Shown here: in pieces, positions 11,440-14,749 of the stretch
Layout: every line of letters begins with the position of its first letter
Numbering within the stretch: position 1 is the stretch's first letter
UHGV virus genome: UHGV-0287902
Strand: one strand, 5' to 3'
DNA length: 38,964 nucleotides
Source of the DNA: a virus
Notes under the pieces: generated by a model
Database searches by the model: none
What the model was told of the DNA's origin: nothing
Seen by the model: only the letters and a program-made list of their open reading frames with translations
Position numbers and translations under genes: made by a program

Positions 11440-11667
11440 ATGGATGATTCAGATTGTGCTCAGGCAGTCATGGAGCGTGCAACAGAACGCGCCCTTTGTG
11501 ACCGGCTGACACGTAAGCGCCGGGTGGCGGAGACACCGGGCAGGCGTGTATGCGCGGACTGCGGGGGTGACATTCCGGCTGCCCGTCTGGTTGCCGTGCC
11601 GGATGCCATCCGTTGTGTGAACTGCCAGAACATCATGGAGGCCGGTCATGTGGGTCAGCATCGTTAA
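11440..11667 (+). CDS. TraR/DksA-family C4 zinc-finger protein
   Basis: 75 aa; CADCGG...17 aa...CVNCQ; RBS AAGGAAAAAGG. Confidence 0.75.
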   Translation: MDDSDCAQAVMERATERALCDRLTRKRRVAETPGRRVCADCGGDIPAARLVAVPDAIRCVNCQNIMEAGHVGQHR

Positions 11668-11959
11668 AGATTATGTCGTGCCGATCCTGTCGGCAACGGC
11701 CACAGCCGGGGGGATCTTCATGGCGCTGATGCGCAAAACCTTTGTCCCCCGCGAGGCCTTTGAAAAACTCTCCGACCGGGTTGAGCGGGTGGAGAGCCGG
11801 ATTTCCGGCCTGCCCACGCAGCAGGAGGTGAACAGACTCAATATCGAAATCACCACCCTGCGCGGTGAGCTTAAGGCCACCAATGCCACCCTGAAATCCG
11901 TCTCCCATCAGAACGAACTGCTGCTGGAGCAGGCTGTAAGGAAAAAACACAATGAGTGA
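11648..11959 (+). CDS. membrane protein, Mu gp25-like (possible releasin)
   Basis: 103 aa; N-terminal TM helix then coiled coil; lysis-cassette synteny. Confidence 0.65.
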   Translation: MWVSIVKDYVVPILSATATAGGIFMALMRKTFVPREAFEKLSDRVERVESRISGLPTQQEVNRLNIEITTLRGELKATNATLKSVSHQNELLLEQAVRKKHNE

Positions 11960-12242
11960 TTTCATTACTGAAGATCAGCGTCTTGTCATTCTGCGGTCGC
12001 TGGCGGATTACAACGGCGAACTGGGCGAATCCGTGCTTCAGGACTGCCTGGATGATTACGGCCACCGCGTGTCCCGCGACACCGTTCACACCCACATTGC
12101 CTGGCTTGCTGAGCAGGGACTGGTGCGTAAGCGCACGCTTGTTAACGGTTATTTCATCGCTGAACTGACCGGCCGGGGTCAGGATGTGGCGGAAGGTCGT
12201 GCCACCGTTCCGGGTGTGAAGAAACCACGCGCAAGGGGGTAA
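11952..12242 (+). CDS. Mu gp26-like protein
   Basis: 96 aa, synteny. Confidence 0.65.
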   Translation: MSDFITEDQRLVILRSLADYNGELGESVLQDCLDDYGHRVSRDTVHTHIAWLAEQGLVRKRTLVNGYFIAELTGRGQDVAEGRATVPGVKKPRARG

Positions 12243-12244
12243 CG

Positions 12245-12826
12245 ATGGATAAGCCGACGCGTGGCCGTGTACGCAAGGTGGATTTGCTCCCCGACAGCAT
12301 CCGTAAGCCGCTGCTGGAAATGCTGCGTGAAAAACGCCTGACGCAGGTCCAGATCCGCGAGGAAATCAACCGTCTGATCCGTGAGGCAGGCCTGCCGGAA
12401 GAGCAGCAGCTTTCACCGGCGGCCATCAGCCGGGAAGCCTCCCGTAATGAGCTGATTGCCCGTAATCTGCGTGATTTACGCGAGCAGACAAAAGCCATGA
12501 TGGCCGAACTGGGGGATAAGCCGACCGGTGAAACCACGGCACTGATTCTGGAGATGTCCCGTGCCCTGATGTACCGCCGTCTGCGTGCCGCCACCGAATC
12601 CCTGAACAGCGACAGCGATGTGGATATGCGCCTTATTAAGGACATCCTCCTGTCGGCACAGCGTGCGGAAAGTGCCGCCGAGCGCAGCATTAAGCGTGAA
12701 AAAGAAATCCGGGCCGCATTTGCTGAAGAGATGGCGAACGCCGTCACCGACGAGTTGCGCGGCGTGGATGGCATGAGCGAGCAGATAGAATTCCGTATCA
12801 GGCAGATGCTGCTTGGTAAGGCGTAG
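12245..12826 (+). CDS. Mu gp27-like protein, putative small terminase subunit
   Basis: 193 aa, directly upstream of TerL. Confidence 0.75.
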   Translation: MDKPTRGRVRKVDLLPDSIRKPLLEMLREKRLTQVQIREEINRLIREAGLPEEQQLSPAAISREASRNELIARNLRDLREQTKAMMAELGDKPTGETTALILEMSRALMYRRLRAATESLNSDSDVDMRLIKDILLSAQRAESAAERSIKREKEIRAAFAEEMANAVTDELRGVDGMSEQIEFRIRQMLLGKA

Positions 12827-12836
12827 GAGGTGAATC

Positions 12837-13085
12837 GTGGTAACAGATAACCGCTCACTGATGAGCAGTGCTCATCAGAAGGCATTCAGTCTTGCAACAC
12901 AGTTACCTCCTGAAACCATAAAAGCGTGTCGTGAGTTGACTGAACTCAGCATTGCCGGGGAAATATCCCTGGAACAACTGCATTCGCTGCTGGCAGGGGC
13001 TGTCACTGATGAGTTGAGTGGCGTGGACGTGATGACTGAAGAGCTTGAGTTCCGAATCAAAAGCATTCTGACAGGTAAAGCCTGA
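12837..13085 (+). CDS. small protein sharing the C-terminal 27 aa of gp27
   Basis: C-terminus AVTDELSGVDVMTEELEFRIKSILTGKA versus gp27 AVTDELRGVDGMSEQIEFRIRQMLLGKA; GTG start. Confidence 0.5.
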   Translation: MVTDNRSLMSSAHQKAFSLATQLPPETIKACRELTELSIAGEISLEQLHSLLAGAVTDELSGVDVMTEELEFRIKSILTGKA

Positions 13086-14749
13086 TGAACAAAGCCAAAG
13101 AAAAGTCTCCTTCACTGATACAAATGACACCTCCCCGCAAAATTGATCTGTCCGGTGAAAAAGCCCTGCTGGGCGTGGATGTGCCGGACAGCCTTGATTT
13201 GCCCGGTGATATGCCGGTGTTTCTGGATTATCAGGCCCGCTGGTTTGCAGATGAAAGTCAGGTCTGCATCGCGGAGAAATCCCGACGCACCGGGCTTACC
13301 TGGGCGGAAGCCGGGCGTAACGTCATTACCGCCGCAAAGCCTAAGCGTCGTGGTGGCCGTAATGTGTTTTATGTGGGGTCAAAACAGGAGATGGCGCTGG
13401 AATATATTTCTGCCTGCGCGCTGTTCTCCCGTGCCTTTAACCAGCTGGCAGATGCTGATGTGTATGAGCAGACATTCTGGGATCGGGATAAAAAAGAAGA
13501 AATTCTGACCTACATGATCCGCTTTCCGAACAGTGGATTCAAAATTCAGGCATTGTCTTCCCGTCCGTCAAACCTGCGCGGTCTTCAGGGGGATGTGGTG
13601 ATTGATGAAGCCGCGTTCCACGAGTCACTGGATGAGCTTCTCAAGGCGGCAATGGCGCTTACCATGTGGGGCGCACGCGTGCGCATTATTTCCACGCATA
13701 ACGGCGTCGATAATCTGTTTAATCAGTACATTCAGGAAGCCCGCGAGGGGCGCAAGGATTACAGCGTCCACCGCATAACCCTGGATGATGCCATTGCGGA
13801 CGGGCTGTACCGTCGTATCTGTTACGTCACCGATCAGGAATGGTCACCGGAAAGCGAGCAGAAATGGCGTGATGATCTCTACAAAAACGCCCCGACCCGT
13901 GAGGATGCCGACGAGGAATACGGCTGTATCCCGAAAAAATCCGGCGGTGCCTATATTCCTCACGCGCTTATTGAAATGGCGATGATTCGTGACATCCCGA
14001 TTCTGACGTTTGAAGCCCCGGACGACTTCATCAGCCGTGCCGCATGGCTGCGTGAATCGGAAGTTTTAACCTGGTGTGAAGAACATTTAAAACCGCTTAC
14101 AGAGAAATTAAATCCCCGTTCCCGCTTCAGCTTCGGGGAAGACTTTGCCCGCACCGGTGACCTGTCCTGCTTTGTGCTGCTGGAAATCACCGAACTCCTG
14201 GCAAAGCGCGAGGTGTTTCGCGTGGAGCTGCGCAACCTGCCGTATACCCAGCAGGAACAGGTGATGATGTACATCCTGACCCGCGTTCCGGCGCTGGTCG
14301 GTGCGGCGTTCGACGCCACCGGTAACGGCGGCTATCTGGCAGAGGCCGCACTGCTGGCCTTTGGCCCGGACATCATCGACTGCGTGATGTTGTCGCCGAA
14401 GTGGTACGGCGAGTGGATGCCAAAACTGAAAGCCGAGTTTGAAGATCAGAATATCCTCGTCGCCCGCCATCAGACCACGCTTGATGATTTGCGCCATGTG
14501 AAGGTGGTGAATGGTATCCCGCAAATCGACAAGGGGCGCACGAAGGACCAGAACGCAACGGCTGCGAACGCCCGCCGCCATGGTGATTTTGCCGTGGCAC
14601 TCTGTATGGCAAACCGGGCGTCATACATGGAGGGTTTCATCCTGGATGAATCAGCCTGTCAGGCGCTGCCGGAGCGGTCGCGGGCAATGGAGGGCGGTTA
14701 TCGTGATGACGATGAGGCATATCATGAATTTGATCGGGGGTGCTGGTAG
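13085..14749 (+). CDS. terminase large subunit (Mu gp28-like)
   Basis: 554 aa, position and size. Confidence 0.9.
   Translation: MNKAKEKSPSLIQMTPPRKIDLSGEKALLGVDVPDSLDLPGDMPVFLDYQARWFADESQVCIAEKSRRTGLTWAEAGRNVITAAKPKRRGGRNVFYVGSKQEMALEYISACALFSRAFNQLADADVYEQTFWDRDKKEEILTYMIRFPNSGFKIQALSSRPSNLRGLQGDVVIDEAAFHESLDELLKAAMALTMWGARVRIISTHNGVDNLFNQYIQEAREGRKDYSVHRITLDDAIADGLYRRICYVTDQEWSPESEQKWRDDLYKNAPTREDADEEYGCIPKKSGGAYIPHALIEMAMIRDIPILTFEAPDDFISRAAWLRESEVLTWCEEHLKPLTEKLNPRSRFSFGEDFARTGDLSCFVLLEITELLAKREVFRVELRNLPYTQQEQVMMYILTRVPALVGAAFDATGNGGYLAEAALLAFGPDIIDCVMLSPKWYGEWMPKLKAEFEDQNILVARHQTTLDDLRHVKVVNGIPQIDKGRTKDQNATAANARRHGDFAVALCMANRASYMEGFILDESACQALPERSRAMEGGYRDDDEAYHEFDRGCW

What the first reader, a model, noticed from the sequence alone, without database searches (positions are those of the whole stretch)
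12245..13085. C-terminal tail of the gp27-like protein duplicated on an adjacent small ORF
The last 27 residues of the 193-aa gp27-like protein recur, slightly diverged, at the C-terminus of the next 82-aa ORF, immediately upstream of the large terminase. The shared tail may be a docking peptide, implying two proteins competing for the same partner; or the small ORF is a partial-duplication remnant.
Basis: seen in the sequence. Interest (0 to 1): 0.45.

Follow-up and report, generated by a model that had tools for sequence, protein, structure and literature searches.

The report
Small-terminase tail fused onto small ORF
In this Mu-like E. coli prophage, a small non-essential gene between the two DNA-packaging (terminase) genes ends with a diverged copy of the small terminase's highly conserved 27-residue C-terminal tail, most likely because recombination fused an older small gene to a foreign terminase gene end; it is a tidy example of phage mosaicism, and no function has been shown for it.

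Summary
The last 27 codons of gp27 (12743-12826) recur in frame at the end of the 82-codon ORF (13002-13085): 56/84 nt, 20/31 aa, BLASTP E 1e-12.

It is not a recent local duplication. Synonymous sites between the two tails are saturated, and tail B is closer to the gp27 tail of other Sp18-like prophages (67/84) than to its neighbour (56/84).

ORF82 residues 1-55 belong to a separate small-gene family. Tail-less members sit in the same slot in E. coli (ORF67) and Salmonella (ORF70). ORF82 is therefore best read as a chimera: an old small gene fused to the 3' end of a foreign gp27 gene that arrived with the TerL start and kept the ATGA stop/start overlap.

ORF82 is intact in 25 of 230 complete E. 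coli genomes that carry this prophage type and absent from the other ~205, from Mu, D108 and SfMu. It evolves almost neutrally (dN/dS 0.3-0.6, against <0.05 for gp27).

The tail is the most conserved part of Mu-family small terminases, so it is plausibly a TerL-docking peptide by analogy with lambda and P22. Tail B, however, carries four changes at positions invariant in the genuine gp27 proteins compared. Competition for TerL is untested. Interest is modest.

The parts
12245..12826 (+). gp27, the putative small terminase (TerS) of a Mu-like (Sp18-like) prophage, 193 aa
   Evidence: Pfam PF11985 Phage_Mu_Gp27 E 3e-33. PHROG 426 'terminase small subunit' E 9e-55. dN/dS 0-0.05 among ORF82-type prophages.
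12743..12826 (+). Tail A: the last 27 codons plus stop of gp27 (VTDELRGVDGMSEQIEFRIRQMLLGKA*)
   Evidence: It is the most conserved part of gp27 across Mu, Salmonella and Vibrio relatives. The amino-acid sequence is nearly identical in the type II-IV prophages examined (one R>K change in L009/L010). Its 3' half is unusually diverged from the rest of the family (27/42 nt vs type I).
12825..12832 (+). Shine-Dalgarno sequence AGGAGGTG for ORF82. It overlaps the gp27 stop codon (TAG 12824-12826) and ends 4 nt before the start codon.
   Evidence: Read directly from the sequence. Conserved in most alleles (GGGGTT in L009/L010). Retained in E. coli CI5, where it drives a 9-codon mini-ORF that overlaps the TerL start.
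12837..13085 (+). ORF82 (GTG start, 82 aa), a member of PHROG 30922 (unknown function) and a chimeric accessory gene
   Evidence: PHROG 30922 E 8e-57, full length. Intact at 82 codons in 25 complete E. coli genomes and in alleles down to 79% aa identity. NG86 dN/dS 0.3-0.6. 17 synonymous against 32 nonsynonymous variable-site changes.
12837..13001 (+). N-module of ORF82 (aa 1-55), predicted as three helices. Homologous to tail-less small ORFs in the same slot in other prophages. GC is 48%, against 58% in gp27.
   Evidence: ORF67 (P0132 / L014) matches PHROG 30922 positions 2-55 at E 3e-14. Salmonella ORF70 (L018) gives Smith-Waterman score 62, 0 of 5000 shuffles as good. Alignment. AF2 helices 5-22, 25-39, 45-60, mean pLDDT 70. 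GC content.
12858..12878 (.). Perfect 21-nt palindrome (CTGATGAGCA-G-TGCTCATCAG) inside ORF82 codons 8-14. Other alleles carry different palindromes at nearly the same place.
   Evidence: Significance unknown; partly eroded in L005, L007 and L009.
12903..12912 (+). Anti-SD-like TTACCTCCTG (codons Q-L-P-P), predicted to pair with the ORF82 SD and gp27 stop region (12824-12833)
   Evidence: RNAfold and RNAalifold give a 10-bp stem in all ORF82 alleles, with no covariation because both sides are nearly invariant. The stem is broken in the tail-less ORF67 allele.
13002..13085 (+). Tail B: the last 27 codons plus stop of ORF82 (VTDELSGVDVMTEELEFRIKSILTGKA*), derived from the 3' end of a gp27 gene of another lineage
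   Evidence: 56/84 nt to tail A, 67/84 to the type-I gp27 tail, 60/84 to Salmonella. Synonymous sites vs tail A are saturated; vs type I dS is 0.66 and omega 0.24. R>S, G>V, S>T and L>T at positions invariant in genuine gp27 are fixed in all ORF82 alleles.
13083..13087 (+). ATGA-type stop/start overlap (TGATG) between ORF82 and TerL, preceded by the SD-like AGGTAAAG that lies inside the last tail codons
   Evidence: The same junction (GGTAAAGCCTGATGAA) joins gp27 directly to TerL in type-I relatives.
13085..14749 (+). Large terminase (Mu gp28 homologue, 554 aa). The first ~17 residues are a hypervariable leader, followed by the conserved PPRKIDL...LLGVDVP motif.
   Evidence: PHROG 2 'terminase large subunit' E 8e-43. 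Only 39/60 nt identical to type I in the first 60 nt, against 54-60/60 elsewhere. Three leader alleles.

Best explanation
ORF82 is a chimeric, dispensable accessory gene made by recombination at the hypervariable junction between the small and large terminase genes of Sp18-like Mu-like prophages.

Origin. Its first 55 codons come from an older small gene that already occupied the slot just downstream of gp27; tail-less versions survive as ORF67 in E. coli and ORF70 in Salmonella. Its last 27 codons are the 3' end of a gp27 gene from a different Mu-like lineage. That end arrived together with the first ~17 codons of TerL and was joined in frame at a short A-x-A (GCN-NNN-GCN) microhomology.

Why the tail persists. 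The fusion kept the native gp27-TerL translation junction: an SD-like GGTAAAG inside the last tail codons, and the ATGA stop/start overlap. ORF82 now takes the place of gp27 as the cistron whose termination hands ribosomes to TerL. ORF82 is itself started from a strong SD that overlaps the gp27 stop codon. The duplicated tail is therefore mainly a scar of how the mosaic was stitched, kept in frame because TerL expression depends on it.

Likely activity. The product is probably made. It carries a degenerate copy of what is most likely the TerL-docking peptide of TerS, so it may bind TerL weakly. It is not needed for packaging.

Shown: the repeat, its age, the chimeric make-up, the distribution, the relaxed constraint and the junction anatomy. 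Inferred: translational coupling, the docking role of the tail, and any binding by ORF82.
For: 1) Repeat confirmed.
2) Not a local duplication. Upstream of 13002 the in-register identity to gp27 is random. A-B synonymous sites are saturated (14.3 of 17.8 synonymous sites differ), with differences 5/5/16 by codon position. Tail B matches the type-I tail at 67/84 and tail A at 56/84.
3) The N-module has tail-less homologues in the same slot. ORF67 in L014 matches PHROG 30922 positions 2-55 at E 3e-14. Salmonella ORF70 in L018 beats all 5000 shuffles. Both share a 4-residue segment and a collinear C-terminus that ORF82 lacks, so the tail-less form looks ancestral.
4) The patch of tail B plus the TerL leader is 75-77% identical to type I, against 91-95% in the flanks, and is AT-richer (48-51% and 40% GC against 58%).
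5) The junction GGTAAAGCCTGATGAA is the same as the gp27-TerL junction of type I. In CI5 the ORF82 SD and start are kept and drive a 9-codon ORF that overlaps the TerL start.
6) Dispensable and weakly constrained. Present in 25, absent from ~205, of 230 complete E. coli genomes with this prophage type. Absent from Mu, D108, SfMu and the Vibrio phage. Sp18, which lacks it, is predicted to be intact (PMC2669165). dN/dS is 0.3-0.6, against 0-0.05 for gp27 and 0.04-0.13 for TerL. By site counts the N-module is indistinguishable from neutral (p 0.37) and the tail only marginally constrained (p 0.03).
7) Tail B carries four changes at positions invariant in the genuine gp27 tails compared, from E. 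coli to Vibrio.
8) No promoter-like site or known RNA in the region, so the ORF sits inside the late operon.
Against: The ORF is exactly 82 codons with no stop or frameshift in every distinct allele examined from complete genomes, isolate assemblies and IMG/VR, down to 79% aa identity. The four tail-B-specific residues are themselves fixed. This could mean selection on the protein rather than only on an open frame. With about 49 variable-site changes and a 3.7% chance of a stop per random change, the absence of stops has a probability of only ~0.15 under neutrality, so it decides nothing.

The donor gp27 with a B-like tail was not found in 5426 complete E. coli genomes. The direction of change (tail-less to tail-bearing) rests on parsimony over three lineages. 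Translational coupling is inferred from sequence only. TerL also has a weak SD of its own, and the tail-less type III expresses TerL from a 119-nt spacer without coupling to the small ORF.
Confidence: 0.5

Rival explanations
1. ORF82 is a working TerL-binding protein. Its TerS-derived tail docks on the TerL N-terminal region, and the three-helix N-module adds a second activity. The protein would then compete with or complement gp27: as a regulator or chaperone of TerL, a brake on premature nuclease or ATPase activity, or a decoy against the TerS of co-resident Mu-like prophages.
For: The tail is the best-conserved part of Mu-family TerS (22/27 against 41% overall vs the Vibrio phage). The TerS C-terminus binds the TerL N-terminus in lambda and P22 (PMC9611059, PMC6739421). 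ORF82 has a near-ideal SD and is embedded between TerS and TerL. It is intact in all genome-derived alleles examined. Within tail B, synonymous and nonsynonymous changes are 7 to 7 against a neutral expectation of 76% nonsynonymous (p 0.03). AF2 predicts the same helix-loop-helix end in gp27 and ORF82. Tail B and the TerL leader are inherited as one block. Some genomes carry several Mu-like copies.
Against: Absent from ~89% of close relatives and from all isolated Mu-like phages in the collection. A tail-less allele occupies the same slot. The N-module evolves as if neutral, and overall dN/dS is 5-20 times that of the neighbouring genes. There are four changes at invariant tail positions. No fold, Pfam, NCBIfam or PADLOC match exists. 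A stoichiometric monomeric competitor of TerS would be expected to harm packaging. No binding was tested.
Confidence: 0.3
2. ORF82 is a recent in-situ partial tandem duplication of the gp27 3' end, or of a unit made of the tail plus the 5' end of TerL, now decaying.
For: The two tails lie 259 nt apart in tandem orientation. A weak pairwise similarity exists between ORF82 aa 9-46 and TerL aa 1-38 of this phage (tblastn E 0.011 within the window; Smith-Waterman shuffle p 0.002).
Against: Synonymous sites between the tails are saturated, and tail B is closer to other lineages' tails. Sequence upstream of the tail shows no in-register similarity to gp27. The TerL similarity disappears with other TerL and ORF alleles (p 0.07-0.98) and in the profile-profile comparison (hhalign probability 0.3%). 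The N-module has independent tail-less homologues.
Confidence: 0.04
3. ORF82 is not a gene at all: a chance open frame in a mosaic spacer, never translated. The conserved features would be RNA or DNA elements (the palindrome, the SD/anti-SD stem).
For: Evolution is near neutral at the amino-acid level. Palindromes recur at the same place with different sequences in different alleles. There is no known domain.
Against: A strong, correctly spaced SD is conserved and is reused in CI5. Length is a constant 82 codons in the genome-derived alleles. The frame is shared with a tail whose differences from gp27 tails fall mainly on third codon positions. PGAP annotates it as a CDS in all 25 genomes. It forms its own PHROG family.
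Confidence: 0.1

Closest known systems
C-terminal TerL-binding moiety of small terminases (lambda gpNu1 residues 100-181 with the gpA N-terminus; P22 gp3 residues 140-162 with TerL residues 1-58)
   Same: The duplicated segment is the extreme C-terminus of a putative TerS. It is predicted as a short terminal helix after a flexible G-x-D-G loop and is the most conserved part of the family. It lies next to the TerL N-terminus on the genome, and the two are inherited together as a mosaic block.
   Different: No binding data exist for Mu gp27, and there is no sequence similarity to lambda or P22 TerS. Here the peptide sits on a second, non-TerS protein that lacks the rest of gp27 (the putative DNA-binding and oligomerisation parts). 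The literature searches run here turned up no such case among those phages (PMC9611059).
Mosaic junctions and small accessory-gene ('moron') slots between conserved phage genes
   Same: The slot is hypervariable, with at least six arrangements. GC content is lower than in the flanks, the gene is dispensable, and the homology boundaries are sharp.
   Different: No promoter of its own was found, and no convincing terminator. The insert is woven into the operon by SD and stop-codon overlaps, and the junction created an in-frame fusion to a functional peptide of the neighbouring gene.
Phage assembly proteins that share a C-terminus so that both reach the same partner (from my own knowledge: Mu gpI protease / gpZ scaffold and lambda C / Nu3, made by nested in-frame starts)
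   Same: Two proteins from adjacent positions in the morphogenesis operon end with the same peptide.
   Different: In those cases the shared end is literally the same DNA read from an internal start, and its function is established. Here it is a second, diverged DNA copy, and co-targeting is unproven.
Satellite-encoded terminase-interference proteins (PICI Rpp; SaPI Ppi; PMC6739421)
   Same: They are small proteins that act on the TerS/TerL partnership. Rpp works by mimicking part of TerS.
   Different: Rpp mimics the TerS DNA-binding domain and binds TerS, and Ppi also binds TerS; both are encoded on satellites. ORF82 copies the opposite (C-terminal) end, sits in the phage's own late operon, has no detectable similarity to any defence or known family, and has no demonstrated activity.

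Membership tests
Phage_Mu_Gp27 / Mu-like small terminase (Pfam PF11985, PHROG 426), applied to gp27 (12245-12826) | Full-length match to the family profile above the curated threshold | tested here: met
   PF11985 at 116 bits against a 28-bit cut-off, residues 12-193 on profile positions 1-173 of 173. PHROG 426 E 9e-55.
Phage_Mu_Gp27 / Mu-like small terminase, applied to ORF82 | Full-length match to the family profile, including the N-terminal part and the long central helices | tested here: not met
   No Pfam hit at E < 0.1. Only residues 52-82 align to gp27. Residues 1-55 show no similarity to gp27. ORF82 is not a small terminase.
Small terminase (functional definition), applied to gp27 | N-terminal HTH DNA-binding domain, helical oligomerisation core, flexible C-terminal moiety that binds TerL | tested here: inconclusive
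   The AF2 secondary structure fits (short N-terminal helices, three long helices, a loop, a terminal helix), but mean pLDDT is only 58. No PDB sequence relative was found. DNA binding, oligomerisation and TerL binding cannot be tested with these tools.
PHROG 30922 (unknown function), applied to ORF82 | Full-length profile match | tested here: met
   E 7.6e-57, residues 1-82 on profile positions 1-82 of 82. This names the family but gives no function.
Translationally coupled cistron pair (ORF82 to TerL) | Upstream stop codon overlapping or abutting the downstream start, with only a weak independent RBS for the downstream gene | tested here: met
   TGATG overlap at 13083-13087, with only AGGTAAAG upstream. 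The same junction is used by gp27-TerL in type-I relatives. Actual coupling (dependence of TerL synthesis on ORF82 translation) cannot be tested here.
Moron (autonomous accessory gene cassette) | Own promoter and terminator flanking the inserted gene; atypical base composition | tested here: not met
   No sigma-70-like promoter in 11500-13600. The only terminator-like hit inside the ORF is on the minus strand and is the palindrome. Composition is atypical (48% against 58% GC), but the gene is read as part of the late operon.
Recent tandem duplication | High nucleotide identity between copies, similarity extending over the whole repeat unit, copies closest to each other | tested here: not met
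   Identity is 56/84 nt with saturated synonymous sites. Similarity is confined to 84 of the 259 nt. Tail B is closest to another lineage's tail.
Known anti-phage defence or packaging-interference proteins (PADLOC; Rpp/Ppi-like) | Profile match to a catalogued defence or interference family; encoded on a satellite or expressed from the prophage state | tested here: not met
   No PADLOC, Pfam or NCBIfam match. Foldseek against viral structures found nothing with E < 0.7. The gene lies in the late morphogenesis operon.

The most novel reading that the evidence does not exclude
ORF82 is a phage-encoded mimic of the TerS tail. It is a small protein that uses a captured, retuned copy of the small terminase's TerL-docking peptide to sit on the TerL N-terminus. 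There it would modulate terminase assembly, for example by holding TerL inactive until TerS-pac complexes form, or by blocking the TerS of rival co-resident Mu-like prophages. The four fixed changes at otherwise invariant tail positions would then be specificity retuning rather than decay.
Probability: 0.15. Interest if true: 0.6.

Novelty: new variant of a known kind. Interest (0 to 1): 0.33.

Why it matters
If the reading is right, the locus is a clean natural example of how phage mosaicism makes new genes. A non-homologous join inside an operon is tolerated because it preserves the translation hand-over to an essential downstream gene, and as a by-product it transfers a functional peptide from one protein to another.

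It also points to the last 27 residues of Mu-family gp27, together with the adjacent TerL N-terminus, as the likely TerS-TerL contact in a phage family whose terminase has never been studied structurally. It supplies a natural variant (tail B: R>S, G>V, S>T, L>T) for testing which residues matter.

If ORF82 does bind TerL, it would be a phage-internal regulator or decoy of terminase assembly, a type the searches run here did not find described. If it does not, the finding is ordinary mosaic debris.

Tried and rejected
1) In-register (259-nt offset) comparison of ORF82 with gp27: random-level identity upstream of 13002, so this is no extended duplication.

2) The idea that the ORF82 N-module is a duplicated TerL N-terminus. 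There is a weak hit within the window (tblastn E 0.011; shuffle p 0.002). It is not reproduced with other alleles (p 0.07-0.98), and hhalign gives probability 0.3%. Rejected.

3) The idea that the Salmonella ORF87 (L020) also ends in a decayed gp27 tail: Smith-Waterman against its own gp27 is not significant (p 0.57). Not claimed.

4) Function by homology. Pfam, NCBIfam and PADLOC gave nothing. PHROGs gives only an unknown-function family. Foldseek of the AF2 model against BFVD gave nothing better than E 0.7. PDB sequence searches for gp27 and TerL were empty.

5) Remote relatives of ORF82. A profile search of 1.84 billion representatives found only its own cluster, fragments, the tail-less ORF67 and two spurious repeat proteins. 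IMG/VR gave 8 near-identical loci. The scan of species-representative genomes found none.

7) The gp27 AF2 model came out at pLDDT 58, too poor for a fold search, so none was run.

8) Rfam and the promoter scan found nothing of note.

9) A donor gp27 with a B-like tail: none in the 5426 complete E. coli genomes. Identities are strictly bimodal, 25 genomes at >=90% and 206 records at 75-77%.
Full report
**What is there.** The window is a Mu-like prophage of the Sp18 type from E. coli. Around the finding the order is:
- DUF2730 (Mu gp25-like)
- a winged-helix gp26-like gene
- gp27 (12245-12826; Pfam PF11985 E 3e-33; PHROG 426 'terminase small subunit')
- an 82-codon ORF (12837-13085)
- the large terminase (13085-14749; PHROG 2)
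- the portal

ORF82 starts at GTG in this copy and at ATG in most alleles. The start lies 10 nt after the gp27 stop, behind a strong Shine-Dalgarno sequence (AGGAGGTG, 12825-12832) that overlaps that stop. The ORF82 TGA overlaps the TerL ATG.

**Check of the observation.** The repeat is real.
- BLASTP of gp27 against ORF82 aligns residues 163-193 with 52-82: 20/31 identical, 26/31 positive, no gaps, E 1e-12.
- The ORF82 family profile (PHROG 30922) hits the gp27 tail at E 6e-8.
- At DNA level the similarity begins sharply at 13002 / 12743. Just upstream, in-register identity is 3-7 of 15, which is random.
- Over the 84-nt tails identity is 56/84, with differences distributed 5/5/16 over codon positions.

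**The tail is special in the gp27 family.** I aligned gp27 from this phage, a type-I relative, two Salmonella prophages, Mu and a Vibrio phage. The last ~50 residues, and above all the last 27, are the best-conserved part. Against the Vibrio protein, identity is 41% overall and 22/27 in the tail. About 120 close E. coli and Salmonella homologues follow the pattern AVT[DE]ELRG.DGMSE.LE.RI..[VI]L[LM]GKA with only occasional exceptions.

In lambda and P22 the TerS C-terminus is the element that binds the TerL N-terminus (PMC9611059; PMC6739421). A docking role for this tail is therefore a reasonable inference, but nothing here tests it.

AF2 predicts the same end in both proteins: the end of a long helix, a G-x-D-G loop and a short terminal helix. 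Confidence is moderate to low (ORF82 pLDDT 70, gp27 pLDDT 58).

**Distribution.** Of 5426 complete E. coli genomes, 230 carry this prophage type.
- 25 have ORF82, at 100-90.9% nucleotide identity, always annotated as a CDS.
- About 205 lack exactly 259 bp and join gp27 directly to TerL by an ATGA overlap.
- Mu, D108, SfMu, the Yersinia Mu-like phages and a Vibrio phage also lack it.
- Sp18 of O157 Sakai, which lacks it, is judged intact in silico (PMC2669165).

ORF82 is therefore dispensable. A search of 5.8 billion proteins and a profile search of 1.84 billion representatives found the family only in E. coli. IMG/VR holds 8 near-identical loci, of which seven were checked and carry an intact 82-codon ORF.

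**The junction is a hypervariable slot.** I found these arrangements:
- Type I: gp27-TerL with no ORF.
- Type II: this window.
- Type III (L014): the same gp27 and the same SD, then a 67-codon ORF whose first ~59 residues are homologous to ORF82 residues 1-55. It has no gp27-like tail. A 119-nt spacer follows, then a TerL with a different N-terminal leader.
- Type IV (E. coli CI5): the same SD and first four codons, then a 9-codon ORF overlapping the TerL start.
- Salmonella L018/L019: a 70-codon ORF clearly homologous to the ORF82 N-module (Smith-Waterman 62, 0 of 5000 shuffles as good), again tail-less, with a 166-codon minus-strand ORF inserted behind it.
- Salmonella L020/L021: an unrelated 87-codon ORF that also overlaps the TerL start.

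**Origin of ORF82.** Three facts argue against a local duplication of the neighbouring tail.
- Synonymous sites between tails A and B are saturated: 14.3 of 17.8 synonymous sites differ.
- Tail B is closer to the type-I tail (67/84) and about as close to the Salmonella tail (60/84) as to tail A (56/84).
- The patch made of tail B plus the first ~17 TerL codons is 75-77% identical to type I while the flanks are 91-95%, and it is AT-richer.

The two tail-less homologues, ORF67 and Salmonella ORF70, share a four-residue segment and a collinear C-terminus that ORF82 lacks. The tail-less form is therefore the more likely ancestor.

The switch from ORF67-like sequence to gp27-like sequence falls at an A-x-A motif present in all three: ORF67 GCG-CAC-GCT, gp27 GCG-AAC-GCC, ORF82 GCA-GGG-GCT.

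The simplest history is an illegitimate or microhomology-guided crossover. One parent carried gp27 followed by the small gene. The other contributed a gp27 3' end plus TerL. The product is an in-frame chimera.

**Why the tail persists.** The last tail codons contain the only SD-like sequence ahead of TerL (AGGTAAAG), and the stop/start overlap is identical to the gp27-TerL junction of type I. An out-of-frame join would have ended the small ORF early and uncoupled TerL. CI5 shows that the small ORF's SD and start are kept even when almost all of its coding sequence is gone, again ending on top of the TerL start. I infer that selection acts mainly on an open, translated frame that delivers ribosomes to TerL.

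**Constraint on the protein.** Among seven distinct alleles:
- NG86 dN/dS for ORF82 is 0.3-0.6, against 0-0.05 for gp27 and 0.04-0.13 for TerL.
- Counting variable sites gives 17 synonymous and 32 nonsynonymous changes, against a neutral expectation of 75% nonsynonymous (p 0.07).
- The N-module alone is neutral-like (p 0.37). The tail is marginally constrained (7 to 7, p 0.03).
- With ~49 changes and 3.7% of random changes giving a stop, an intact frame has a probability of ~0.15 under neutrality, so intactness alone proves little.
- A few altered copies exist in databases: two in-frame deletion variants, one frameshifted copy, and truncated calls starting at an internal TTG.
- Tail B has R>S, G>V, S>T and L>T at positions that are invariant in the genuine gp27 tails compared, from E. 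coli to Vibrio. These four changes are fixed in all ORF82 alleles.

This pattern fits decay, or selection against competition with TerS. It could also be retuning of specificity.

**Verdict.** The shared tail is very probably a functional TerS peptide in gp27. In ORF82, though, it is best explained as a recombination scar kept for translational reasons on a chimeric, non-essential, fast-evolving small gene. A real TerL-binding role, as competitor, modulator or decoy, is not excluded (about 0.3). It could be tested directly by complex prediction, two-hybrid and the stop-codon and tail mutants described under next steps.

**Comparison with what is known.**
- ORF82 is not a small terminase: the membership test failed.
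- It is not a classical moron: it has no promoter and no convincing terminator of its own.
- It is not a catalogued defence or interference protein.
- It belongs to PHROG 30922, unknown function.

The closest analogies are three. One is phage mosaic junctions in general. Another is the principle of two assembly proteins sharing a C-terminus, as in Mu I/Z and lambda C/Nu3 (from my own knowledge). The third, more distant, is satellite proteins that mimic part of TerS, such as Rpp (PMC6739421).

I rate it a new variant of a known kind, with modest interest.

Noticed in passing
window 12858-12878; L014 about 3019-3039; L018 about 3115-3133: A perfect 21-nt palindrome (CTGATGAGCA-G-TGCTCATCAG) lies in ORF82 codons 8-14. 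Other alleles of the small ORF carry different palindromes at nearly the same place (GGGCGCTGAT-T-ATCAGCGCCC in ORF67; GGGCGCT-AATAATC-AGCGCCC in L004/L008; GGCGCTG-TTTGC-CAGCGCC in Salmonella). Some alleles (L005, L007, L009) have eroded it. It could be a conserved hairpin or a protein-binding site; this is unexplained.
   Followed up: partly
window 12824-12833 paired with 12903-12912: The ORF82 Shine-Dalgarno and gp27 stop region is predicted to pair over 10 bp with a CCUCCU-containing stretch 70 nt downstream (codons Q-L-P-P). The stem is present in all ORF82 alleles and broken in the tail-less ORF67 allele. It would sequester the SD unless ribosomes finishing gp27 open it. There is no covariation, so it is unproven.
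   Followed up: partly
window 13085-13135 (TerL residues 1-17); L001 2728-2780; L003 2580-2645: The first 17-21 residues of the large terminase are hypervariable, with at least three alleles in E. coli and more in Salmonella. From PPRKIDL onward the protein is 95% conserved. The leader alleles travel with the junction type, so the TerS tail end and the TerL leader form one exchangeable block.
   Followed up: partly
L003 (E. coli CI5) 2548-2590: The small ORF is reduced to 9 codons (MATDWFSYE*) but keeps the SD and start, and its stop lies just past the TerL ATG. It looks like a minimal leader cistron for TerL.
   Followed up: partly
L018/L019 3148-3648 (minus strand); L020 3093-3356: Salmonella Mu-like prophages carry other cargo in the same gp27-TerL slot. 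One is a 166-aa ORF on the opposite strand with no Pfam or PADLOC match. The other is an unrelated 87-aa ORF that also overlaps the TerL start.
   Followed up: partly
L011 371-613 (P0011); P0013: A short Logan contig fuses the first 24 codons of ORF82 to DNA upstream of the baseplate gene (Mu gp44-like); this is either a large internal prophage deletion or an assembly chimera. Separately, P0013 (291 aa) is a read-through fusion of gp26 and gp27.
   Followed up: no
E. coli JE86-ST05 (NZ_AP022815.1), JE86-ST02, strain 48 (NZ_CP166879.1): Some genomes hold 2-4 copies of this Mu-like prophage region, including three copies of the ORF82-type region in JE86-ST05. This suggests recent transposition or repeated lysogeny, and hence that ORF82-type phages are active.
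   Followed up: no
window 13085-14749: The Mu-type large terminase has no Pfam-A or NCBIfam hit at E < 0.1 and no PDB sequence relative; only PHROGs recognises it. gp27 likewise has no solved relative.
   Followed up: no
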